Shown one piece after another: positions 18,058 to 38,466 of a DNA stretch of 38,466 bases. The stretch is from a virus (Duplodnaviria; Caudoviricetes), in the IMG/VR virus record IMGVR_UViG_3300020294_000011, positions 1-38,466 of that record. One strand, given 5' to 3'. The notes beneath the pieces are model-generated. The model worked only from the letters and a program-made list of their open reading frames with translations, searched no databases and had not been told where the DNA came from. Position 1 is the stretch's first letter. The number at the start of each line of letters is the position of its first letter. Both the position numbers and the translations under genes were made by a program.

Positions 18058-21000
18058 ATGTCATCATTTAAAGACACGACATGGGATGTAACTGATCCCA
18101 TAGATCAAACTTCATCTGGAAACATCGACCTCGGATACGCTTCTAATGTAGATAGAAGCACTATACTTAGAAATCCACAATTCTTAAAAGACTTGCAAGA
18201 CAGGTATGATCCTAATGGCATTTACTCAGACGATGATCTCATTGAAAAGTTTTATTCAGATGAAAACTGGGCTCAGTTAAATACTTTTGGAGCCGTATCA
18301 AGACTTGTAGACGGAGGCGGTGACACAGACGAAGATAAAGCAAGGAACGCTCGACTTACTAATGTCTGGGACAACCTCCCCCACTTTTATCAGGAAGGTG
18401 GTCGTGGCGTTGGTGCTTTAGGGGACATCGCTGAGTCTGTCTTGCTAGACCCAATCAACGTAATAGGTGGCCTTGCAGGTAAAGCTGCTGCTCGTGGATC
18501 TATGAGGGCAGCTACAGCATTAGGAAAGCCAACTCCAATCAAGTCCACACTCAAAGGCGTAGGAACTGCCGCCGCTACCGAAGGTGCGATATCTGGTGGT
18601 CAAGAAGCTCTCATAAACGTCAGTGAACAATCATACAGGCAAGACATTGGCCTTCAAGACGAGTTTAGCTGGGGGCAGTTTGCAACAGCAACTGGTTTCG
18701 GAACTGTCTTAGGCGGTGGCGTCGGTGGTGCAATCGGTATTCCTTCTTCTATTGCTGGAATGAGGCAAGGAGAGTTTGAAGCTCAAGAACTTCTAAACCC
18801 TAGAATGATGAATGACCCTGAAGACATTGCCCGTCTTACAAATAAGCAAGCAACAGAGGCAATGAAGGAAACTAAGACGATTGGCCCAATGGTTCCTGAA
18901 GGTTTTGTTGCAAAAGGCGCAGACGAAATAACTGAGGTCGCTGAAGAACCTGCACCAAAGACATCGACTGAAAAAATAATAGAAGAGCTTGAGGCAGGTA
19001 ATCAAGTCTTTCAAGATCAACTTGAACAAGCAAGGCTTGCACAAGAAGAATTTGAAGCACAGGGGATTAAAAAAGGAGATGCAACAAGGTCTGAAGTCGA
19101 AGCACAGGTAGCAGAAGCAGAAGTCAATATTGATATAGTTGACAGGCTGAAAGAAGAGCAAGCCCAAATAAAAGTATTTCTTAAAGATAATAGTATACCT
19201 AATCAGAAAAAAGGCAGAGCAATGCAAGCGTTGCTGGATGCTGATGTTGCTAAAGCAAGAGTGGCTTTAAAAAAAGGCGACAGAGTCACAATGAAAAGCA
19301 TAATCGACACCGCTAAAGCGAGGGTCGATGCAAATAAAGAGAAGGAAGTAGAACTCCAAGCAAAGGCTGAAACAGCCAAAGCAACAACAGAAAAAGGTAC
19401 AGCCTCCCCACCCAACGCCGAGGCTGGACAGGCGACGGGAGGTGAACCCACCATTTCCTCCCAAGAAGGCGAACCTCCCGTCACCATAGAAGTTGCTGAA
19501 ACTACATCTACCCCAGAGCAAGAACTGTCAGAAACACCAGAACCTAATTGGGGCAAGAAAGGAGGCGGTGCTGGAAAGGCAAGTGTAGATAATCAGCTTG
19601 CAGAAGCTGGCCTTACGCCAGAGCAGGCAACTGACTTTCTAAAAGAGAATATTGCCAATGGGAAAATACCAACCACCAACGCTGGCGTTATTAAAGCAGG
19701 CGCACCAAAAGCAGTTAGGGCGATACTAAAAGAAACTGCTCCAATCAAAACTCCAGAAGGGGCGATGCCAAAAGAAGAGATGCCATTTGGTCAAGTAGCT
19801 TCCAACTTGGCGTCTGCCAATCAGAGAATCACAGACCCTGACGAAATGCGTCAGGTGATGATTGACCAGATGAAGAGGAACGAGCCTTCTAAAAATCAAG
19901 CAGACATTGAAAAGGACTACGATGAATTAATTTCTGGGGGCGAAGCTCAAAAAGCAGCAGACGATGAGATTATAAGAAAGATACGTCTTAGCGATAAAGA
20001 AGAAGTTGAGATGCAACGTATTGTCAACGAACTAAGGCAAAAAGAATTTGACTGGCAGGCTAACCTTGGGCCAGAATCGTTTAAAAATTTCGCTGATGGA
20101 GAAGAGCTGCTCTTAAACGCTAAGAAGATGGTCTTAGCCAAGAGAGCAGGCCGAGGAGTTAAAAGCCCCAGAAATGTACAGGCAGCGATTGATCGAGCAT
20201 CCATCCTTACCACTGCTGGCAGAACAGAAAGCGGAAGAATACAGTCATTCCTAAAGTGGAGATCAGATCGAGTAGGCTTAGATAAATCAGAGCAAACTTT
20301 TGCAGACAATCGCATGTTGGATTACGGCTCTGCCCATGCTGAATCCATGAAAAGATTGAAGAGTAAGGGAGATAACGTAGAGCAACTTAGGAAGCAATTA
20401 GATAAAGTTAGAAATTTAGATAAAAAAAGAACCTTAGAAAACAAAATAGCCCAGATAGAAAGTGAAAGCGTTGCTGTTCCTTTTGTTAGTTTAAAGACAA
20501 CAAACAATGTTTATTCTATGTCCCCAGATGGTCGCCTTAATGCAAAGACTACATTTGAAAAAGGTTCAGTCTTATATGCTGATGCAAGAAACGGAAAGAT
20601 ATTCGACAGTGAGTACACTGCCGACCTTGTTTACCACCAGAAAGACATAAGAAGAACTGGCAAATCAAAAGTCCTTGACGATCAGCCCCTCCGAAAAGGC
20701 AACAGAATACTTATCATTAAAAAGAAAGACGGAACTGGCGCAGCCCCTATAAGAATTATGAACACCCAGCAAGAAGCTCGTGGAGAAGGCTTGAAGGAAA
20801 TGCTTGGGAACCAAAAGCCAGAAGATTGGGAAGTTCGCTACATTGACCAAGAGTTAGTGACTAGCAGAAAGCAAAGCATCCTCCCTGAATTGTGGGAAAA
20901 GGCGACCACTCCCCTCGATGCCACAGACGGAAAAGGCGTCTTGCGATTTGAGGGAGATGAAACAGGCAACGGCATGGCTACCCCTATTGAGAACCTAGCC

Positions 21001-24000
21001 GAATCTCCTGTAACAGAAGGCGAACTCAATCCTCAACAAGCACTGGCCTTTAAGCGTGGAGGAATGAATGAAACCTCCACACTGGCAGACGTTCAAGCTA
21101 GAATAGATGAGATCGAGCGAAAAGGTTTCTCATTAGCACAGACAGAGACTGACTACGCTATCCTAATAAGTGACCTCGAACAGCTTTACTCTATACAAAG
21201 GGACAAAATGCCTGGTGGCGTTGTAAGAAAGAACGCCGTGAGGGAAGAAGCCACTCAACGGATAGAGGGCATTATGTCCGACACAGACCCTGAACTAGTG
21301 GTCGCTGTTAAAAATATGCTTTCTTATATGGGAGGCGATCAAAACAAAGCTCCAAATATTTTTCGTGGCTCTAATGAAGGATCACGAGGAGGCGGTACTT
21401 GGTCATACGACAAAGGTAAAATTATAGCCGTTACTGGAGCAAAGCCAGACAGGGATTTCTTTCATTCTATATCTCAATGGGCTTACGACAACATCCTGAC
21501 ACCAGAAGACCGCATGGTTTTCTGGAACTCAATCGTCCAAGACATTTCTGTCAAGCGTGGTGCTGGGAAAACCAGAACTAAAAAACTAAGCGAAGAGTAT
21601 GGTGCAGAAGGAAGCATCTTGCCTCGCCAAGTTTTTGGGGATCAGTTTGCCAGTTGGATAATGGATAACCGAACTGCTGGCATTTTTGCGAAGGATCTTC
21701 CAAACGGCAAGAAGATGGGAGCAAAGGTTTCTGAAGTTTTAAAAGGCTCAATCGACAGGTACTTCTCCAAGAAAGAAATCAATCCAAACCTAGAACCTCT
21801 CTTCTCTAAAATACTTCCTGAAGAAATCAGGCAGATGAAGAAGCTGGGCAATATATCTGACAAGCCACAGACCAAAGGAGGTGAAGTAGCCAAAGGGTTT
21901 AAGGCCAAATTAACAATGGCAAAAGAAGATATGGTTGCTGCGATAAGAAAAAATAATTCTGCTGACCCACAAGACGTTGGGAACCCAGATAGTGTGCTTA
22001 TTGCAGCTACAAATTTTAGAGACTTACTTGGGCAAGCCTTTGCAGGCCGTGATATTGGGGGCAAGTCAACAGCCATAGCTAAGACACTAAAGTGGCTAAG
22101 ACCTTTAGATAAGATGGGGCGTGGGCGTTTCGCAGACTTGAACTACATTTTATCTGGAGCAGCACTCCCAGATGAATTGAAATTAACGGCAGAAGAAACG
22201 TCAACCTTGGTGCAAGAAGGTCTATCTGCTGGACGAAGACCAGAAAGTATTGAAGCTCAAGCACACTTAATTGAAGAATTGTTTGAACATGGTCATGCAG
22301 TCAATCTCAAAGGTGGTGCTAATGCACGACCATACGGAGGAACAAAGACAGAATTTACAACCCTTTCTGAACTCATTCGCTTAATGGATGAATATACAGA
22401 TACAGCCTATGTAGAATTTGAGGGCAAGCATTTATCAAACACATCAATCAACCTCAAAACTGGCGAAGTTATAGGAAAACCTGACCCAGCAATTAAGAGG
22501 AGATTAAACCTAAAGAAAAATGAGGATGCAAACGCTGCAAACGAAGCAGAAAAAGTTGTCAAGGTAACACAGAAAAAGAGAAAGTCTTATTACGATCCCT
22601 ATAAGAGAATGGACTACGTCACTGAAGCTACTCGCGTCAGTTATGGAAGCAAGTCTTACAAAGAGCTTTTAGAACTATTCAAGAAAACCAAAGACACACC
22701 ATTGGGCGATCAGATTGCTTGGCTAATGATGTCAAAGAAGAAGGCAGAGCCAGAGCCTCTAAAGACTAAATTGTCTGACTTTGGAAAATCTACCGAAAGC
22801 TCAAAACTTTTTAATTTACAAAAGCCTGAGATTTTAAAGCTCTGGAAAGACGGGATAAGAACAGGAAGATTTGTGCATGGTGGAAAAGAGTATCCCTTTT
22901 CTGCTATTGAGTGGGAAGTTCAAAGGCGTGGTCTTGTTGATAGATATAAAGCAGGCGACAAGAAGCCACCAGTTTACCTAAGACAAAGAATAAAAACAGA
23001 ACTCAATCATGGCGTAGGTGTGGCAACAGAGGACGGTATTCCTCCATCAGCCCCAATCGGTGCTAAGACTATCCTGTCTTACATGAGCCATCGTGACCCT
23101 GAAGTACAGTTCACTCAACGAACTATGCTTTACAGGATGATGAACTTGATGGGGAAGAATGTTCAGAACACCCTCGGTGAAACGAATGTCATGGACGCAT
23201 CAGACATAGCACGTCTTGCTGGAGATGACCCTGCTGGGCATAAGAATGTATCTGTAGATTTTCGTGGAGAGACTTTTAATAAACTCCGAAAGAACTTTAG
23301 AAGGATGTCTATTGGTTTAACAAAAGGAAACTCCAATCCCTTCGATGCAATCCACGAGATTGGTCACACAATCGTCAGGGCTGGCATGCTCCCGAAAGAA
23401 GAAATGGATGCCGTCATTGAGCTATATAAAGCGTCTGATGATGCAATTAAAGCCAGAGTACAGAAAGATTATGCTAATAAATATGACGCCCCAGAAGCAC
23501 AGCAAGAGCAACTGCTTGCCGAGGAGTGGTTTGCTGAAAACCTAGCTAACTACCTTGGGGAAAGAACCATGCGTGGTGACGTTTTAAAGGCTATGTCTGG
23601 TGGAAACTTAGACAACTTACGTCTTAAAAATTCTTTTGAAAGAGCCTTCGATAGGATCGTTGAGCTTGTGTCTTATGTTGTCAATGGATTGATCGGACGT
23701 AAAGATATTAAGCAACAGTTCAGACGATTAACAATCTACGGAGATATGCTTGAAGAAACTGGTAAATCTCCTCTTGTGAGAACAAGCGTTAAAGAGCCTG
23801 CTATATCACCAGCATACGTTAATGCGTATGCTAGTGATGTTCTAAGACAGAGCAAACCCAGTAAGAAAGCTGCTGTCCATAAATATAACGGAGGAGGTAA
23901 GTTTTCTGTTAGAGAAGACGGAACACCTATCGTTTACTACCACGCCACGCCAAATGGCGGAGCCTTTAAAAATAGTCAAGTTGTGATGGAACAAGGTGGT

Positions 24001-27000
24001 GGTCTTGCTGGCCCTGGAATTTACATATCACCAAACTCCCGTGCTGTAGAAATGATCTATGGTAATCGTCCGACGATGGGAGCGATTGAAAGACTGATTA
24101 GGGATAAAGCCCCCGATCTTGGGGAGGAAAAGGCAGAGTCTCTTGTCTATGAAGCTATGGATTTGCACGATCTTCGGGTAGAGATTTCACTGGCAAGACG
24201 AAAACTGGCAGAAGCAGCAGACGATGTTGAGATGCACAATGATGAGGTTATGCACTTTCAAAATGCTATGGGTGGTGAGCTTGATGAAGCTAGTATCTCT
24301 TCCCTCAACAGAGAGCTAAAGACGAAGCAAGAGCATGAATCAGATTTAAGAAACACACTGACTGCTATGCTTGAAAAAGAAGATGCAGTGATGGCTGAGT
24401 TTGACCAACAGGGGGTTAACTTTGAGCCAACTGTCTTGCCACTCGTAACTCGAATGTTAAATACTTTTGACTTGGGTAAAGGGGTAACTCACAAGCTCAA
24501 TGACCCACAAATTCAGTCGATTCTTAGATCAGTCTATAAAATCACAAATAATTTTGAAGGGGGTGACAAAGCATTTGCTGATGAGGTGATGCTAGATTGG
24601 TGGCCTGAGACTGGACTCAGAGGAATAGAAGTTTATGAAAAACTTTATAGCTACGTAAATAATGGAATGGATGGATTTGGTGCAGAAGCCGTTGACAATG
24701 CCCAAGCAATTCTAAATCAAGCTATTGAAGATGCTGGCTTTGACAGTATGAAAGTCCCTCATCAAAATAGAATGACACCAACAGACACAACACCAGAAGA
24801 CGCCATACGTGGTGAGCTTATGGAATATGATGCTTTTGTCGTCTTCAATCCAGAAGGTGTGAAGCACGTTAATGCTGAGTTCTTTGATGCTGAAGACGCC
24901 CGTCTGTATTACAGGGACTTCGGGAAAACTGGGCAAGGGTTCAATGGGTCTGTTGTGAAAGCAATGGCAGACGGCGAAACAAGCAAGCTCGACACGTCCA
25001 ATACAATTCAAATGCTCGAAGCCATAGAGGACGAAGGCGTGTCTGCACCAATGGTGGATGCCATGTCTAGTATTCTTAGGAGCAGAGACTTTACCCCTAT
25101 TCAAGAGCAGGCAGTCAGAAAGCAAGGGCCAATGGCTTGGCTTACAAGTCAATCAGACAGGATGGAACGAATGGGTATGAACTGGCTTGGTAGCTGGTAC
25201 AAGGATCACTTCCCCAATCAGCACCAGACATTTGCTTCTAAGTACATGCCCATCCATAATTTATTAAGGGGCTTACCAGGCGCACACGGAAAGGTCAGAG
25301 CTTGGGCGAGAAGTGCTTCAGCCAGTATTGGACAGAAGCAACCACAAGCCTACAGTAATATTGTTTCAGCCCTAAGACACGGTGACGGAAGCCGTCAATG
25401 GAATAGATTGACCCCATCCGAGAAGTCAGTGGCTGAAAAAATTAAAGACGAGTTTAATAAAGAACGCCAACGAATGTTAGAAGCTGGCATGTTCGTTGGG
25501 TACAGACGCAATTATGTCCCCCAAATATGGAACAAGGACAGGATACAGAAAAACAGAGAAGGCTTCCTTGCTGGCATGAGAAGCTACTATGGGCAAGAGC
25601 AGACATCTTTAGGTAATACATTCCAATCAGCAGACGCTGACGCCTTTGCAGAGAAGGTCTACCAAAGTTTGACACGAGAAAGCGTTGACGGGGTTCAGGT
25701 TCCTGAAAGCCCTAAGTCTCCTATCAAGGGTAGTACAAAAAATCCACGAGCTGAAAGCCTAGACTTTAATAGGGTCATTGAGTTGGAAAAATATCCAGCA
25801 GCGATGAAAGAAATGGAGAAGTTTCTCGAAGACGATTTAGAATTTATGCTGGTTAAATACTTTGAGGGATCAACAAGACGTACTCTTCACGCAGAAAAGT
25901 TTGGCCTCAATTCTCACGGGGTAGATGACTACCTTTACGTGACCGAGAACGGATCAAGAGGCATAGCCAAACTCCTTTCTACTAATAAAGTATATCAAAA
26001 AGATTTTAGGTCAGTAACATCTGATGGAGTTGAGGAAGGTGTCTTGAGATCAGAGACAGTCATGCCTTTCCATAATGATGAAGCTGGTGCGGTAAGGTTT
26101 GCAGACGAACTTGTTGAGATCGCTCAAACACACGGAAGCCCTGCTGTCAGACAAAAATTGGAATCAATCTCTGTTGGGGATATCAACCCCACCTATCGTG
26201 CAAGGATCGAAGCTATCGTCGGAGCCTTGGAGGATCATAAAGGTATCCGAACTAGAATGGAGACTGATGATGCAAGATTTATTGAAAACTCTATGCGAGT
26301 GGCTCGAAAGGATAGCCTCAATGACTTTGGAGGTAAGGCTGGCCTAAGAGCATCAAGAGCATTAAGAACATTTAACAACGTAACCCTCCTCGGTTTTACA
26401 ACCCTGACTTCCCTCGGTGACTTAGTCCTCCCAATCATAAGGTCTGGATCTTTCACTGACTGGACAAAGTCTGTCTATCAACTGGCAACAGATCCTGACT
26501 ACAGACGAGCCTTAAAGGAAGTTGGGATTGCAATGGAGAACATCACGCATGAGCGTATGCTCAACATGTATGGTGCAGCCGATAGTAAATTATCAAACGC
26601 TTTCTTCAACGCTACTATGCTAACGCCTTGGACAGACATGAACAGACAGGTGGCTGGGGCATTAGGGCATCAGACATTTATAACCCACCAAAGGAAAGCA
26701 TTGAGGTCATACATCCCTGGCAAGCCAGTGAGTGAACAGCCACGAGACTATAAAATTGCTTACAGATATATGAAAAACTTTGGCCTTCAGGAATATCTCG
26801 AAGGGGGAACTAAGTCTAAAATTTCTTTGAGTGATACGAGCTTAATGTCGAAAGACGAAAATTTAAGAAAAGCCATGATTAGGTTTGCAGATGAGAGTAT
26901 CTTTCAGCCTAATGCTAACGACACTCCAATGTTCGCACAGACGCCCCTCGGTGCTTTGGCTTTCCAGTTAAAGTCATTCCCTCTAATGATGACACGTCTA

Positions 27001-27618
27001 GCAGGCCATGTAATTAGAGAAGCTAATCTTTCAAAGCTTCTTAAAGGAGACGCAAGCGAATCTAATATCAAGCCCCTTCTTTACTTCGCCTCACTTGGCC
27101 CAGCTTTTGGTATGGGTGCATTAGCGGCGAAAGATATTGTCCAGATGAGAGGTGGCGAAGACGAACAATCGCCAGCACTAAGAATTAGAAACGCTATGAA
27201 AACTTTAGGATACGACGAAAAGATTCATGGGAATGAGGTAGATTTCTGGGGCTGGTACATGGAAGGTATGCTTCAGATGGGTGGCGTTGGTCTTCTTGGC
27301 GACATCTTGCACTCAGCCGTTACGCAGGCAGACAACGGATCATACGGACAGACACGCTTTCTACAGACACTCGGAGGCCCAAGTGTTGGTCTTGTTACAG
27401 GTGGATTGAGTGTCCTTGGCGGTACGCAAGATGCGATCTTCGGAACGACAGACAGCAACTCCAAAGAAAGAACGGCACTGAGAGAAGTGGCTACCCGTAT
27501 CCCAGTTGTTGGTGGGATCAAGAGAGCCAGAGAAGGAATAGTAAACATGATTGGCGGTGAGGCCAGCGGTGGTGGTTCTTCTGGATGGGGTAAAGGATGG
27601 GAAGGTAGTTGGAATTAA
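18058..27618 (+). CDS. Giant internal virion polyvalent protein (zincin-like MPTase, ART-like domain, C-terminal ejection-protein region)
   Basis: 3186 aa. HEIGH...EEWFAE at about 23353-23538. YYHATP...AGPGIYIS...GFDS...EYDAFVVFNP..VK at about 23935-24870. Gly-rich hydrophobic segments near both ends. Confidence 0.75.
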   Translation: MSSFKDTTWDVTDPIDQTSSGNIDLGYASNVDRSTILRNPQFLKDLQDRYDPNGIYSDDDLIEKFYSDENWAQLNTFGAVSRLVDGGGDTDEDKARNARLTNVWDNLPHFYQEGGRGVGALGDIAESVLLDPINVIGGLAGKAAARGSMRAATALGKPTPIKSTLKGVGTAAATEGAISGGQEALINVSEQSYRQDIGLQDEFSWGQFATATGFGTVLGGGVGGAIGIPSSIAGMRQGEFEAQELLNPRMMNDPEDIARLTNKQATEAMKETKTIGPMVPEGFVAKGADEITEVAEEPAPKTSTEKIIEELEAGNQVFQDQLEQARLAQEEFEAQGIKKGDATRSEVEAQVAEAEVNIDIVDRLKEEQAQIKVFLKDNSIPNQKKGRAMQALLDADVAKARVALKKGDRVTMKSIIDTAKARVDANKEKEVELQAKAETAKATTEKGTASPPNAEAGQATGGEPTISSQEGEPPVTIEVAETTSTPEQELSETPEPNWGKKGGGAGKASVDNQLAEAGLTPEQATDFLKENIANGKIPTTNAGVIKAGAPKAVRAILKETAPIKTPEGAMPKEEMPFGQVASNLASANQRITDPDEMRQVMIDQMKRNEPSKNQADIEKDYDELISGGEAQKAADDEIIRKIRLSDKEEVEMQRIVNELRQKEFDWQANLGPESFKNFADGEELLLNAKKMVLAKRAGRGVKSPRNVQAAIDRASILTTAGRTESGRIQSFLKWRSDRVGLDKSEQTFADNRMLDYGSAHAESMKRLKSKGDNVEQLRKQLDKVRNLDKKRTLENKIAQIESESVAVPFVSLKTTNNVYSMSPDGRLNAKTTFEKGSVLYADARNGKIFDSEYTADLVYHQKDIRRTGKSKVLDDQPLRKGNRILIIKKKDGTGAAPIRIMNTQQEARGEGLKEMLGNQKPEDWEVRYIDQELVTSRKQSILPELWEKATTPLDATDGKGVLRFEGDETGNGMATPIENLAESPVTEGELNPQQALAFKRGGMNETSTLADVQARIDEIERKGFSLAQTETDYAILISDLEQLYSIQRDKMPGGVVRKNAVREEATQRIEGIMSDTDPELVVAVKNMLSYMGGDQNKAPNIFRGSNEGSRGGGTWSYDKGKIIAVTGAKPDRDFFHSISQWAYDNILTPEDRMVFWNSIVQDISVKRGAGKTRTKKLSEEYGAEGSILPRQVFGDQFASWIMDNRTAGIFAKDLPNGKKMGAKVSEVLKGSIDRYFSKKEINPNLEPLFSKILPEEIRQMKKLGNISDKPQTKGGEVAKGFKAKLTMAKEDMVAAIRKNNSADPQDVGNPDSVLIAATNFRDLLGQAFAGRDIGGKSTAIAKTLKWLRPLDKMGRGRFADLNYILSGAALPDELKLTAEETSTLVQEGLSAGRRPESIEAQAHLIEELFEHGHAVNLKGGANARPYGGTKTEFTTLSELIRLMDEYTDTAYVEFEGKHLSNTSINLKTGEVIGKPDPAIKRRLNLKKNEDANAANEAEKVVKVTQKKRKSYYDPYKRMDYVTEATRVSYGSKSYKELLELFKKTKDTPLGDQIAWLMMSKKKAEPEPLKTKLSDFGKSTESSKLFNLQKPEILKLWKDGIRTGRFVHGGKEYPFSAIEWEVQRRGLVDRYKAGDKKPPVYLRQRIKTELNHGVGVATEDGIPPSAPIGAKTILSYMSHRDPEVQFTQRTMLYRMMNLMGKNVQNTLGETNVMDASDIARLAGDDPAGHKNVSVDFRGETFNKLRKNFRRMSIGLTKGNSNPFDAIHEIGHTIVRAGMLPKEEMDAVIELYKASDDAIKARVQKDYANKYDAPEAQQEQLLAEEWFAENLANYLGERTMRGDVLKAMSGGNLDNLRLKNSFERAFDRIVELVSYVVNGLIGRKDIKQQFRRLTIYGDMLEETGKSPLVRTSVKEPAISPAYVNAYASDVLRQSKPSKKAAVHKYNGGGKFSVREDGTPIVYYHATPNGGAFKNSQVVMEQGGGLAGPGIYISPNSRAVEMIYGNRPTMGAIERLIRDKAPDLGEEKAESLVYEAMDLHDLRVEISLARRKLAEAADDVEMHNDEVMHFQNAMGGELDEASISSLNRELKTKQEHESDLRNTLTAMLEKEDAVMAEFDQQGVNFEPTVLPLVTRMLNTFDLGKGVTHKLNDPQIQSILRSVYKITNNFEGGDKAFADEVMLDWWPETGLRGIEVYEKLYSYVNNGMDGFGAEAVDNAQAILNQAIEDAGFDSMKVPHQNRMTPTDTTPEDAIRGELMEYDAFVVFNPEGVKHVNAEFFDAEDARLYYRDFGKTGQGFNGSVVKAMADGETSKLDTSNTIQMLEAIEDEGVSAPMVDAMSSILRSRDFTPIQEQAVRKQGPMAWLTSQSDRMERMGMNWLGSWYKDHFPNQHQTFASKYMPIHNLLRGLPGAHGKVRAWARSASASIGQKQPQAYSNIVSALRHGDGSRQWNRLTPSEKSVAEKIKDEFNKERQRMLEAGMFVGYRRNYVPQIWNKDRIQKNREGFLAGMRSYYGQEQTSLGNTFQSADADAFAEKVYQSLTRESVDGVQVPESPKSPIKGSTKNPRAESLDFNRVIELEKYPAAMKEMEKFLEDDLEFMLVKYFEGSTRRTLHAEKFGLNSHGVDDYLYVTENGSRGIAKLLSTNKVYQKDFRSVTSDGVEEGVLRSETVMPFHNDEAGAVRFADELVEIAQTHGSPAVRQKLESISVGDINPTYRARIEAIVGALEDHKGIRTRMETDDARFIENSMRVARKDSLNDFGGKAGLRASRALRTFNNVTLLGFTTLTSLGDLVLPIIRSGSFTDWTKSVYQLATDPDYRRALKEVGIAMENITHERMLNMYGAADSKLSNAFFNATMLTPWTDMNRQVAGALGHQTFITHQRKALRSYIPGKPVSEQPRDYKIAYRYMKNFGLQEYLEGGTKSKISLSDTSLMSKDENLRKAMIRFADESIFQPNANDTPMFAQTPLGALAFQLKSFPLMMTRLAGHVIREANLSKLLKGDASESNIKPLLYFASLGPAFGMGALAAKDIVQMRGGEDEQSPALRIRNAMKTLGYDEKIHGNEVDFWGWYMEGMLQMGGVGLLGDILHSAVTQADNGSYGQTRFLQTLGGPSVGLVTGGLSVLGGTQDAIFGTTDSNSKERTALREVATRIPVVGGIKRAREGIVNMIGGEASGGGSSGWGKGWEGSWN

Positions 27619-36651: not shown

Positions 36652-37083
36652 ATCGACCCCATCACAATCGCAATCGGTGCGTTCAAGGTTGCTAAAAAAT
36701 CCATAGAGATGTCGAAAGACGCTCAGTCTGTTGGACGTGACCTCGCTCGCGTCTGGTCTGCTATCGACGACGTTAAGTCTGACGCCAAAAAGAAAACTGG
36801 TGGCAGCGCTATGGAAAAATTTGTGGCCCTCAAGCAAGCCGAGGACATGGAATCCAACCTAGTCGCAATAATTCGTCAGACCCGTGGAGAAACGGGGTTA
36901 AGACAGTTCATGGCTCTCCGTAAGGAAGAGAAGAAAGCAATGGAAGCCAGTGCCATAGAAGCGAGGAAACGCCTGCGTAAATACGCAGACGCCCTCACTT
37001 ATGGTGTAGGTATTCTAATTTTTATTGGGGGGACTACAGGGATGATCTATCTTGCCTGGCTTGTCCGTGAAGGCAAAATTTAG
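36652..37083 (+). CDS. Membrane-anchored coiled-coil phage protein; probable non-AUG (ATC) start
   Basis: In-frame IDPITIAIGAFKVAKKSIE precedes the first ATG at 36709. GAGGT RBS 7 nt before ATC. C-terminal TM helix. Confidence 0.6.
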   Translation: MDPITIAIGAFKVAKKSIEMSKDAQSVGRDLARVWSAIDDVKSDAKKKTGGSAMEKFVALKQAEDMESNLVAIIRQTRGETGLRQFMALRKEEKKAMEASAIEARKRLRKYADALTYGVGILIFIGGTTGMIYLAWLVREGKI

Positions 37084-37325
37084 ATCACGCCCCAATGTTT
37101 CAAATAGTCCTTGGCTTTATCGCCTGCTGTCCATCCGTTCTTCCAGTCATGCTTAACAATCTGACAGTGCTTTAGCCACTTACAGTGGGGACTTATCTGA
37201 CCGCTTGTCTTTCCGATCTGCTCACTAATGTCAGCCAATCTTATTTTCTCCCACCTCTCCTTCTTGCTCTGCATCCACATGATTGTGAGTGCTATCTTCA
37301 TTTCTATTTCCTTCAGCCTGTGCAT
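37080..37325 (-). CDS. Winged-HTH DNA-binding protein
   Basis: IRLADISEQIGKTSGQISPHCKWL...IV.H....W pattern. GAGGTGG RBS. Confidence 0.6.
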   Translation of the reverse strand: MHRLKEIEMKIALTIMWMQSKKERWEKIRLADISEQIGKTSGQISPHCKWLKHCQIVKHDWKNGWTAGDKAKDYLKHWGVI

Positions 37326-37518
37326 CTTGATTCCACCTCATTACATTATTCATTATCCATTTCGTTGAGTGGCACGATGCCGTGAGATTTGAAATAATCT
37401 CAGCGACACCCTCCCGATTTTCCACGTTGGAATTAAATCCTATCTCAACTCCAACGAGCTTGTCGTCTTCCACCATTGCGTATAGGCTTCCGACGTTTAC
37501 AGCTTTCTTACCCATCAA
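37231..37518 (-). CDS. Hypothetical protein
   Basis: Coupled to the upstream ORF with AAGG RBS. Confidence 0.5.
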   Translation of the reverse strand: MMGKKAVNVGSLYAMVEDDKLVGVEIGFNSNVENREGVAEIISNLTASCHSTKWIMNNVMRWNQDAQAEGNRNEDSTHNHVDAEQEGEVGENKIG

Positions 37519-37715
37519 TGAACCTTGCCTCGGTTGTACTTATCCATGAGCCTCTGGGCTTTATGGGCTGACTGTCTTGCCTCTTGAAGGACATCAATCA
37601 AGTCATTAAAGTATACCTTCGTCGTCTGGTTTTTATCTTCAACCTCTTTACTCACGACATCTATTAGCTTGGCGCATAGCTTATCTACCTCATTGGCAAA
37701 ATCTGTACTGCCCAT
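37515..37715 (-). CDS. Hypothetical helical protein
   Basis: Part of the - strand cluster, with a GGGTGG RBS. Confidence 0.55.
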   Translation of the reverse strand: MGSTDFANEVDKLCAKLIDVVSKEVEDKNQTTKVYFNDLIDVLQEARQSAHKAQRLMDKYNRGKVH

Positions 37716-37941
37716 CTACTACCACCCTTCTCTTTTGGCCCTTCCAAAAACTTAGCTGGCTTTGCAAAGTTCCGAGGGTTTCTTGTGAATGTGGAGGACC
37801 AACTGGAAGTCTGGGAGTAAAAATACCAGAGCCCCACTCTGTCCATTCTTGACTGACTCGATATCCCTTGGACACCATGCGTTTTATTCCTATACTATTG
37901 TAATGAAAAGCCTTCATAAAATGGCCTATATAAATCTTCAT
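37690..37941 (-). CDS. Hypothetical protein, first gene of the - strand cluster next to attP
   Basis: Strong AAGGAGG RBS (37950-56). Confidence 0.6.
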   Translation of the reverse strand: MKIYIGHFMKAFHYNSIGIKRMVSKGYRVSQEWTEWGSGIFTPRLPVGPPHSQETLGTLQSQLSFWKGQKRRVVVDGQYRFCQ

Positions 37942-38115
37942 CTGTATTTCCTCCTTGAAAAGTTGTTATATAGTTTAGTTCTTAGTGTATCCTCTTTAAC
38001 GCTAAAGAGCAACTACACCACTTTTTCTAGTGTCCCGTGGGACACATCTGGTAAACGGGGACACCTACACCACAACTGCTTGTGTCTTTGGGTGTCTTTT
38101 TGGGGTGTATTTACA

Positions 38116-38466
38116 TCATTTGGCGCCTCCTTTATCCTTGGTAAGGAACCTTAACGTCTCCTTGTCAACAGAATTTGATGTGTTAATGTGGTTCTTCTTG
38201 TGCTGGCGTAGCTCAGTGGTAGAGCGTTGCTTTGGTAAAGCAGAGGTCGAAAGTTCAATTCTTTCCGTCAGCACCACATTTTCGTGGGACAGATTTGGGA
38301 CAGATGTATCCGAGGACACATCCAAGCGTTCGATAACACTCTTTAACCCACTCGGCGCAAGGTGTGCATAACGCCTCACCATCTCCATACTGGCATGCCC
38401 TAGCAAGTCTTGGATCTCATCAAGCCCTGCCCCACTCTGCCGTAGTAGAGAAGCAAAAGTATGCCT
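38116..38466 (-). CDS. int: Tyrosine integrase, C-terminal part (5' end beyond the window)
   Basis: Reading in from the window edge gives RHTFASLLRQSGAGLDEIQDLLGHASMEMVRRYAHL (box II R, H and catalytic Y). The frame stays open to 38116. Confidence 0.92.
   Translation of the reverse strand, partial: RHTFASLLRQSGAGLDEIQDLLGHASMEMVRRYAHLAPSGLKSVIERLDVSSDTSVPNLSHENVVLTERIELSTSALPKQRSTTELRQHKKNHINTSNSVDKETLRFLTKDKGGAK
38162..38189 (+). promoter_or_regulatory. sigma70-like promoter for the tRNA (TTGTCA-N16-TAATGT with TGn extension)
   Basis: Predicted start is a few nt upstream of tRNA base 1. Confidence 0.45.
38202..38276 (+). tRNA. tRNA-Thr(GGT), complete with encoded CCA
   Basis: Acceptor GCTGGCG/CGTCAGC, D arm GCTC/GAGC, anticodon arm TTGCT-TTGGTAA-AGCAG, T arm GAAAG-TTCAATT-CTTTC, 3' ACCA. 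Confidence 0.95.

What the first reader, a model, noticed from the sequence alone, without database searches (positions are those of the whole stretch)
38030..38466. Complete, promoter-bearing tRNA-Thr nested antisense inside the integrase gene: intragenic attP
Seen: after the catalytic Tyr the integrase frame continues without a stop across the entire 75-nt tRNA and its promoter to 38116. TGGGACA(C/G)AT repeats flank the tRNA on both sides, about 50-85 nt right and 170-205 nt left of the anticodon. Phage genes lie on both sides. Established: attP usually carries only part of a tRNA, and attP-in-int is known from Myxococcus Mx8 (C-terminus swapped on integration) and SSV1. Inference: integration would replace the integrase C-terminal tail (a possible directionality or stability switch), leave an intact promoter-driven tRNA at both junctions, and keep downstream host genes transcribed (in E. 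coli thrT precedes tufB). tRNA transcription would also be antisense to int mRNA.
Basis: partly seen in the sequence, partly recalled or inferred. Interest (0 to 1): 0.8.

Follow-up and report, generated by a model that had tools for sequence, protein, structure and literature searches.

The report
Rescue tRNA hidden inside phage integrase
A marine phage carries a complete threonine tRNA gene inside the end of its integrase gene; the phage likely inserts at a separate 13-base site just beside it, which would break the host's own tRNA, leave the phage copy as the likely rescue, and swap the last six residues of the integrase.

Summary
A full tRNA-Thr(GGT) (38202-38276) lies antisense inside the open integrase frame, with repeats on both sides. 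Eight family loci share this layout, and an independent run shows it is no chimera. The mechanism needs correcting. The phage is CRP-810-type. The likely crossover is a separate 13-bp anticodon-arm mimic at 38135-38147, not the tRNA: 18 of 18 family loci with a full tRNA-Thr have one, and CRP-810 is published to integrate via such a separate core. A protein 97% identical to this integrase ends LTKGVLYP, exactly the antisense of an alphaproteobacterial tRNA-Thr 5' half, so it is likely the integrated form. Integration would therefore split the host tRNA, leave one intact tRNA (the phage's), and replace only 6 residues here. The result is tRNA-dependent lysogeny combined with an Mx8-like intragenic attP. 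The frame is kept open, and the swapped end is under protein-level selection in relatives, but it has decayed in this lineage, and 10 of 18 relatives stop before the tRNA. A regulatory switch is therefore unproven. The scan noted this layout before on other DNA (tRNA-Arg, e1-10046326).

The parts
38116..38466 (-). 3' end of a tyrosine integrase gene (residues 302-417 of P0002), cut by the contig end; catalytic Tyr codon 38370-38368; residues 340-417 predicted disordered
38202..38276 (+). complete tRNA-Thr(GGT) with encoded CCA, wholly inside int on the opposite strand; anticodon loop 38232-38238
   Evidence: 100% of 231 cells paired and 13 of 21 pairs with two-sided changes over 11 distinct family copies
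38135..38147 (.). likely attP core: TCC-TTGGTAA-GGA, a mimic of a host tRNA-Thr anticodon arm; read as L-T-K(-D) in the integrase frame
   Evidence: host-type protein ends begin right after LTK; CRP-810 precedent (PMC11288001)
38116..38136 (-). codons DKGGAK-stop that integration would replace by a tRNA-antisense end such as GVLYP-stop
38162..38189 (+). putative sigma-70-type promoter for the phage tRNA (TTGTCA, 16 nt, TAATGT), between core and tRNA
   Evidence: 6 of 6 closest loci, 1 of 2 sister loci, 0 of 6 short-spacer loci; not listed; untested
38285..38321 (+). int-proximal repeats (two exact TGGGACAGAT plus a shorter copy), likely arm-type Int sites, about 145-180 nt from the core
38031..38064 (.). 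distal repeats (TGGGACACAT, an inverted copy and a partial copy), likely arm-type Int sites, about 77-110 nt from the core
37080..37941 (-). four small phage ORFs following int in the same direction (phage-side flank; two match the CRP-810 genes after int)

Best explanation
The integrase gene of this CRP-810-type phage reads in frame across a complete antisense tRNA-Thr(GGT) and across a separate 13-bp anticodon-arm mimic that is likely the attP core, so integration would split the host tRNA-Thr gene, with the phage tRNA likely rescuing the cell and the last six integrase residues replaced by tRNA-antisense codons. Step by step. (1, shown) Layout on the tRNA strand: distal repeats, core, 54-nt spacer with a putative promoter, full tRNA, proximal repeats, catalytic domain. 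(2, inferred from CRP-810 and from host-type protein ends) Int recombines the 7-nt TTGGTAA overlap with the anticodon loop of an alphaproteobacterial tRNA-Thr(GGT). (3, inferred) attL becomes host promoter + host 5' half + core + phage promoter + intact phage tRNA + int; attR keeps only the host 3' half. One intact tRNA results, not two. (4, inferred) The phage tRNA supplies Thr(GGT) in the lysogen; its anticodon stem differs from the core, which would keep it from being a target itself. (5, shown at protein level in a 97% identical relative) The integrated gene ends LTKGVLYP-stop instead of LTKDKGGAK-stop. (6, untested) The end swap may tune Int stability or activity; this is more plausible in relatives than in this lineage.
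For: Phage family: 22 of 32 window ORFs hit CRP-810, major capsid 84% identical; relative L002's contig is listed as CRP-810-type subgroup V in the paper's supplement. Separate core: 18 of 18 full-tRNA loci among 57 anchored family loci have a second TTGGTAA within 110 nt 5' of the tRNA, against 0.011 expected per locus (several loci are near-duplicates). [quoted passage not shown] Integrated forms: 3 of 60 protein records that reach LTK end in GVLYP, DALYH or GTLYP. Antisense readings of cellular tRNA-Thr 5' halves give LTKGVLYP-stop in 128 of 204 and LTKDALYH-stop in 1 of 204. P0039 is 97.1% identical to P0002, and P0006 94.7% to P0064, up to LTK. The exact host half occurs in 39 of 301 sampled Alphaproteobacteria, once in 37 of them. 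The tRNA is conserved as a structure. Siblings use the same loop with an ordinary 3'-half attP (L036, L040). The half + core + full tRNA junction exists in cellular contigs (L086, L103, L105).
Against: No DNA junction of this clade was seen. The contigs behind P0039, P0006 and P0025 were not read. None of 112 pattern-scan loci had an integrase of this family, 0 of 401 Alphaproteobacteria matched P0002 at E<=1e-35, and no joint was listed in 8 laid runs (2 had nothing laid). The one hint, a contig of run X13 that reads T-L-T-L-L-T-K-G like P0039, runs only 4 nt past the core (read by hand). GTLYP was not among the 204 host readings, and DALYH is also what CRP-810's own phage tRNA reads. The host is unknown (predicted Roseobacter/Poseidonocella for three relatives at scores 0.22-0.29, below the paper's 0.5 cut-off). 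Essentiality of Thr(GGT) in the host is untested, and the exact-match count cannot exclude variant second copies. The window core (TCC..GGA) differs from the host-type arm (CCC..GGG) in its outer pair.
Confidence: 0.85

Rival explanations
1. One reading: the whole tRNA is the attP core, crossover is in its anticodon loop, both junctions keep a promoter-driven tRNA, and about 40 residues of tail are swapped.
For: Full tRNA with TTGGTAA loop between repeat clusters, about 50-85 and 170-205 nt away.
Against: Separate core in 18 of 18 loci; natural host-type protein ends start after LTK, beyond the tRNA; hybrids would have 3 of 5 or 4 of 5 anticodon-stem pairs; the phage tRNA is only 55-64 of 75 identical to host-type tRNAs; the CRP-810 result.
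Confidence: 0.04
2. Same attP and rescue tRNA, but the read-through is a tolerated accident: a lost stop codon gave a disordered tail with no role, and the end swap does nothing.
For: 10 of 18 tRNA-bearing relatives stop before the tRNA. The tail is predicted disordered in two models. Spacer and core codons show no third-position excess in the closest clade (spacer 56/70/73, 7 synonymous vs 109 non-synonymous). The window lineage has a TGA six codons early and lacks the KPP end of its relatives. The antisense of the rescue tRNA also extends a non-integrase gene in Fionnbharth. An open frame here has P=0.14 under base shuffling.
Against: Frame 0 has no premature stop in 11 of 11 long-tail loci while the other frames have 1-9 stops; shuffle P is 0.012-0.10 for the other eight loci tested (lineages not independent); length changes up to the core are multiples of three. 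L014, L027 and L028 lost the tRNA but keep a 99-100-residue tail. In that sister clade the last window (HPxxYxPDK) is, with the catalytic helix, one of only 2 of 9 windows where synonymous exceed non-synonymous changes (21 vs 14).
Confidence: 0.45
3. The phage tRNA serves lytic growth (codon supply or defence against tRNA-cleaving systems) and is not needed for lysogeny, for instance because the host has a second copy.
For: It has its own putative promoter, so it could be made before integration; tandem tRNA copies are common in some alphaproteobacteria (101 of 112 pattern loci; a set selected for tandem layout).
Against: It is the only tRNA in the window, always has the isotype of the core, and sits at a fixed +92 to +97 from the catalytic Tyr. 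Siblings with a 3'-half attP, which rebuild the host gene, carry no full tRNA there.
Confidence: 0.1
4. Assembly chimera or a prophage junction with a host tRNA.
For: The feature lies at the end of a linear, 66% complete metagenomic contig.
Against: Same layout in 7 other contigs; 10 records end with the window's exact tail; runs of other studies bridge it; phage genes on both sides in L002.
Confidence: 0.01

Closest known systems
tRNA-dependent lysogeny (Fionnbharth K4, cluster L, Gaia and others; Guerrero-Bustamante and Hatfull 2024, PMC10865867; abstract, sections 6, 10, 11 and passages read)
   Same: Tyrosine integrase, short core in a host tRNA gene that is not rebuilt, same-isotype phage tRNA; in Fionnbharth that tRNA also lies antisense over a gene's 3' end and has its own promoter.
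   Different: Here the tRNA, its putative promoter and the core all lie inside the integrase frame and between the arm repeats; the target is Thr(GGT) and the host is likely a marine alphaproteobacterium; requirement for the tRNA is untested.
Roseobacter phage CRP-810 and CRP-810-type phages (PMC11288001; passages, section 9 and rows of supplements 2-5 seen; the supplementary docx with Fig. S4 could not be read)
   Same: Same family, same LuxR-int-tRNA-core order, full tRNA-Thr(GGT) beside a separate 13-bp core, integration shown by PCR.
   Different: CRP-810 Int (339 aa) stops before the tRNA and its core-tRNA spacer is 24 nt with no promoter match; in what I read the paper does not discuss complementation or read-through.
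Myxococcus phage Mx8 intragenic attP (review PMC6070905 and Islander PMC4383910, passages read; primary papers not read)
   Same: attP core inside int; integration gives a new 3' end without destroying the enzyme.
   Different: Here only 6 residues (12-17 in most relatives) are replaced, far beyond the catalytic domain; recalled, Mx8 swaps about a hundred residues. Altered activity is shown for Mx8, not here. No nested rescue tRNA is mentioned for Mx8 in the passages read.
SSV1-type integrases (named in PMC4383910 as extending across attP; details recalled)
   Same: int spans attP in a tRNA-targeting virus.
   Different: Recalled: SSV1 int is cut into N and C fragments. Here the crossover is 75 codons after the catalytic Tyr, so the enzyme stays whole.

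Membership tests
tRNA-dependent lysogeny | Phage tyrosine integrase | tested here: met
   PF00589, invariant R-K-H-R-H-Y columns, fold matches to lambda and Tn1549 Int
tRNA-dependent lysogeny | Short (about 10 bp) core shared with a host tRNA gene; host gene not rebuilt | tested here: met
   11-13 bp core at 38135-38147 followed by spacer, not by a tRNA 3' half; host-type end in P0039. Indirect: junction DNA of this clade not seen.
tRNA-dependent lysogeny | [quoted passage not shown] | tested here: met
tRNA-dependent lysogeny | Host tRNA essential; phage tRNA required for viable lysogens | not testable with these tools
   Host unknown; exact host-type half single-copy in 37 of 39 genomes that have it; passages of the Salmonella preprint did not state the status of Thr(GGU)
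tRNA-dependent lysogeny | Arm-type sites flank the core | tested here: inconclusive
   Repeats at -161/-150 and +97 from the core, like -141/-130 and +119 in CRP-810; binding not tested; count not above chance at one mismatch
Mx8-type intragenic attP | Core lies inside the int coding frame | tested here: met
   Core encodes LTK 75 codons after the Tyr, stop 9 codons later; 8 of 18 tRNA-bearing loci
Mx8-type intragenic attP | Integration yields a protein with a new C-terminus | tested here: met
   P0039/P0002 and P0006/P0064 pairs in the same 90% clusters; protein records only
Mx8-type intragenic attP | The two forms differ in recombination activity | not testable with these tools
   Indirect only: selection on the swapped end in relatives, decayed in the window lineage
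Canonical tRNA-restoring attP | attP core runs on into the tRNA 3' half so the host gene is rebuilt | tested here: not met
   Core is followed by a spacer; met instead by siblings L036 and L040
SSV1-type split integrase | Crossover cuts int ahead of the catalytic domain (feature recalled) | tested here: not met
   Core lies after the catalytic Tyr
CRP-810-type phages | Core genes: major capsid, PD-(D/E)XK nuclease, AAA ATPase, primase-polymerase | tested here: met
   84%, 56%, 63% and 65% identity to CRP-810 in the same order
CRP-810-type phages | Core genes: portal and large terminase | tested here: inconclusive
   No hit among the 32 ORFs tested; record is 66% complete

The most novel reading that the evidence does not exclude
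The tail is an integration sensor. An 85-100-residue disordered linker is kept in frame across arm sites, tRNA, promoter and core solely to carry a short selected C-terminal peptide (..KPP or HPxxYxPDK) past the crossover. Integration trades that peptide for a fixed host-tRNA-antisense end (LYP/LYH-stop) and so resets Int stability or directionality, while the same stretch of DNA encodes the tRNA that keeps the lysogen alive, with an anticodon stem recoded to escape its own integrase.
Probability: 0.3. Interest if true: 0.75.

Novelty: new variant of a known kind. Interest (0 to 1): 0.5.

Why it matters
It extends tRNA-dependent lysogeny, tested so far in actinobacteriophages, to a widespread marine phage family with a cultured member, and it gives a likely reason for the tRNA-Thr that the CRP-810 paper only listed. 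One family shows the whole series: ordinary 3'-half attP, core plus rescue tRNA after the stop, core plus tRNA inside int, and long tail without tRNA. That allows the question of how these layouts interconvert to be tested. About 250 nt serve at once as protein code, tRNA, putative promoter, core and arm sites. Natural free and integrated integrase forms differing in 5-12 terminal residues give a minimal test of Mx8-like control. For annotation, such tRNAs are not att cores, and island finders that seek a displaced tRNA fragment would likely misplace these prophage ends.

Tried and rejected
Search for junction DNA: a pattern for host 5' half + core + full tRNA gave 1 viral, 39 metagenome and 72 genome loci. 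Of the 112, 101 were tandem tRNAs, 6 half + intron-bearing copy, 2 degenerate Dyadobacter copies and 3 junction-like, none with this integrase. The pattern misses spacers over 84 nt. Reads: 8 runs laid, no joints. No RNA holder was listed, so expression is untested. P0002 was not found in 401 sampled Alphaproteobacteria. Further viral scans with sub-clade alignments added no new read-through locus; some searches returned only the L002 contig. The promoter-like site at 38110-38138 was set aside: 4 sites found vs 2.4 +/- 1.6 expected, and its -35 is not kept in L002. A 1-nt frameshift after the core, suggested by the alignment, was rejected after the codon comparison showed an in-frame TGA. Two AlphaFold monomers showed no docking of the tail (pLDDT under 50). 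The tree is the quick one (careful search unfinished): read-through falls in three supported groups (SH-aLRT 100, 99, 100) whose relations are unresolved, so ancestry versus repeated gain is open. I considered helical phasing of the core-arm distance but did not test it formally. Pro-stop tagging by tmRNA as the role of KPP is only a lead: Hayes 2002 was seen as a reference title in PMC7246954, both forms can end in Pro, and the sister clade ends in PDK. 23 of the 78 loci lacked my catalytic-Tyr anchor and were dropped before the counts. Literature: one search returned 0 papers; the listings showed no title or abstract start on a rescue tRNA nested in an integrase gene; subscription papers are mostly not held.

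Full report
Observation. The window is a linear IMG/VR virus record, 66% complete. ARAGORN and Rfam find one tRNA, Thr(GGT) with CCA, at 38202-38276. On the opposite strand a tyrosine-integrase frame runs from the contig end past the catalytic Tyr (38370-38368) to a TGA at 38118-38116. It is the exact end of the 417-aa protein P0002. The three exact TGGGACA[CG]AT copies of the window all lie here, although the motif at one mismatch is not above chance window-wide. A 59-kb relative, L002, has the whole 424-aa integrase with the same nested tRNA and phage genes on both sides. A contig from another study spans 38080-38466 unchanged. The feature is real.

The phage. 22 of 32 window ORFs hit Roseobacter phage CRP-810 in order, the capsid at 84%. 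L002's contig is listed as CRP-810-type subgroup V, with a weak Roseobacter/Poseidonocella host prediction. CRP-810 also has a full tRNA-Thr(GGT) antisense to int, but its Int stops just before the tRNA's 3' end. [quoted passage not shown]

The core is not the tRNA. The window has such an anticodon-arm mimic at 38135-38147, 54 nt 5' of the tRNA and still inside int, where it encodes LTK. I anchored 57 family loci on the catalytic Tyr (23 distant loci were dropped). Of these, 18 carry a full tRNA-Thr, and 18 of 18 have a second TTGGTAA within 110 nt upstream, against 0.011 by chance (some loci are near-duplicates). In the window's clade the tRNA's anticodon stem is unlike both the core and host-type arms. 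A crossover in the tRNA would leave 3 of 5 or 4 of 5 stem pairs with six stand-in host tRNAs. Siblings L036 and L040 use the same loop with an ordinary 3'-half attP and no full tRNA.

Natural integrated forms. Of 60 protein records that read through the tRNA to LTK, 57 end in phage sequence and 3 end in GVLYP, DALYH or GTLYP. Cellular tRNA-Thr 5' halves read antisense give LTKGVLYP-stop in 128 of 204 cases and LTKDALYH-stop in 1 (a redundant set). P0039 is in the window protein's own 90% cluster and is 97.1% identical up to LTK; P0006 pairs likewise with P0064. This places the crossover at the separate core and shows the end swap: DKGGAK for GVLYP. The DNA of these records was not seen. A low-depth contig in run X13 reads like P0039 but extends only 4 nt past the core. 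Searches for junction DNA of this clade failed, though three cellular contigs show the half + core + full tRNA junction for other elements. The exact host half is present in 39 of 301 Alphaproteobacteria, once in 37.

The tRNA and its promoter. Across 11 distinct family copies all 231 cells pair and 13 of 21 pairs change on both sides, above all 500 shuffles and all slid controls. A TTGTCA-16/17-TAnnnT element lies between core and tRNA in 6 of 6 closest loci, 1 of 2 sister loci and 0 of 6 loci with 15-24-nt spacers. The pattern was tuned to the window, the generic scan missed it, and the same bases encode a loosely kept I-N-T..V-D-K motif. No RNA run held the stretch. After integration this promoter would point into the prophage, antisense to int, and not at host genes. 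No EF-Tu was found after the host tRNA in 7 loci scanned, and a murA-family gene is divergent upstream in 5 of 10.

Is the read-through selected? For: no premature stop in frame 0 in 11 of 11 long-tail loci against 1-9 stops in the other frames; shuffle probabilities of 0.012-0.14 per locus (not independent); length changes in multiples of three; and three loci that lost the tRNA but keep the tail. In the sister clade the terminal HPxxYxPDK window and the catalytic helix are the only 2 of 9 windows with more synonymous than non-synonymous change (the motif-anchored count is biased by my choice). Most of the window's clade ends in KPP. Against: 10 of 18 tRNA-bearing loci stop early; the middle of the tail shows no codon signal; the tail is predicted disordered; and the window's own lineage has a TGA six codons early and lacks KPP. 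I put a real regulatory role at about 0.3 for the family and lower for this lineage. The quick tree gives three read-through groups with unresolved links.

Comparison. It works like tRNA-dependent lysogeny (PMC10865867; abstract and sections 6, 10, 11 read) and meets every feature testable here; the requirement for the tRNA is untested. It also meets the two structural features of Mx8-type intragenic attP (passages of PMC6070905 and PMC4383910) but not yet the functional one. An antisense rescue tRNA extending a gene is known from Fionnbharth gene 37. I found no paper on one nested in the integrase together with the core (listings only). The scan's own notes record the same layout with tRNA-Arg on other DNA, which I did not check. 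PMC12429752 (passages) mentions a similar complementation in alphaproteobacterial prophages. The supplementary docx of PMC11288001 could not be read and may show the junction sequences.

Verdict. The feature is real and the intragenic attP is supported. It is a new variant of a known kind, interest 0.5.

Noticed in passing
L109 977-1339 (also L111, L099, L092, L098, L117): Junctions of a tRNA-Thr 5' half + core + short spacer + a second tRNA-Thr whose anticodon loop is interrupted by a group I-like intron. Rfam RF00028 matched 4 of these 6 loci at 25.6-29.3 bits, below the gathering score of 50; in L109 the exons rejoin to a full loop. Likely a rescue tRNA shielded by an intron.
   Followed up: partly
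L103 2985-3160, L105, L086: Cellular contigs with host tRNA-Thr 5' half + core + 44-56 nt + full tRNA-Thr, with a murA-like gene on the host side in L103 and L105 (name recalled from the ORF) and no integrase of this family nearby: other elements using tRNA-dependent integration at the same loop.
   Followed up: partly
L014, L027, L028: Integrases with a 99-100-residue tail and the HPxxYxPDK end but no tRNA; at the core position they have CC-N7-GG with other overlap letters, suggesting retargeting with the intragenic layout kept.
   Followed up: partly
L034, L037, L045, L054; L042, L043, L024: The same integrase family also carries tRNA-Ser-like 3' fragments (Ser label recalled from the loop), and Thr 3' halves in the opposite orientation to int; other members (L019, L046, L058) show no att-like site right after int.
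   Followed up: no
L004 (CRP-810), L020, L013, L029: In these early-stop loci the tRNA and the core still read in one common frame (LPx ... LTK or LTN), shifted from int, as if derived from or poised for read-through.
   Followed up: no
window 18058-27618: A 3186-aa ORF with no PHROG hit; its last part matches a CRP-810 gene at 53% over 837 aa, where the region is annotated as two genes.
   Followed up: no
window 37937-38109: Two alleles (11 differences) of the distal arm region coexist in runs X7 and X10, while 38080-38466 is invariant in X7.
   Followed up: no
P0017: A more distant integrase whose tail reads like the antisense of a tRNA 3' end (recalled), possibly read-through of an ordinary attP.
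   Followed up: no
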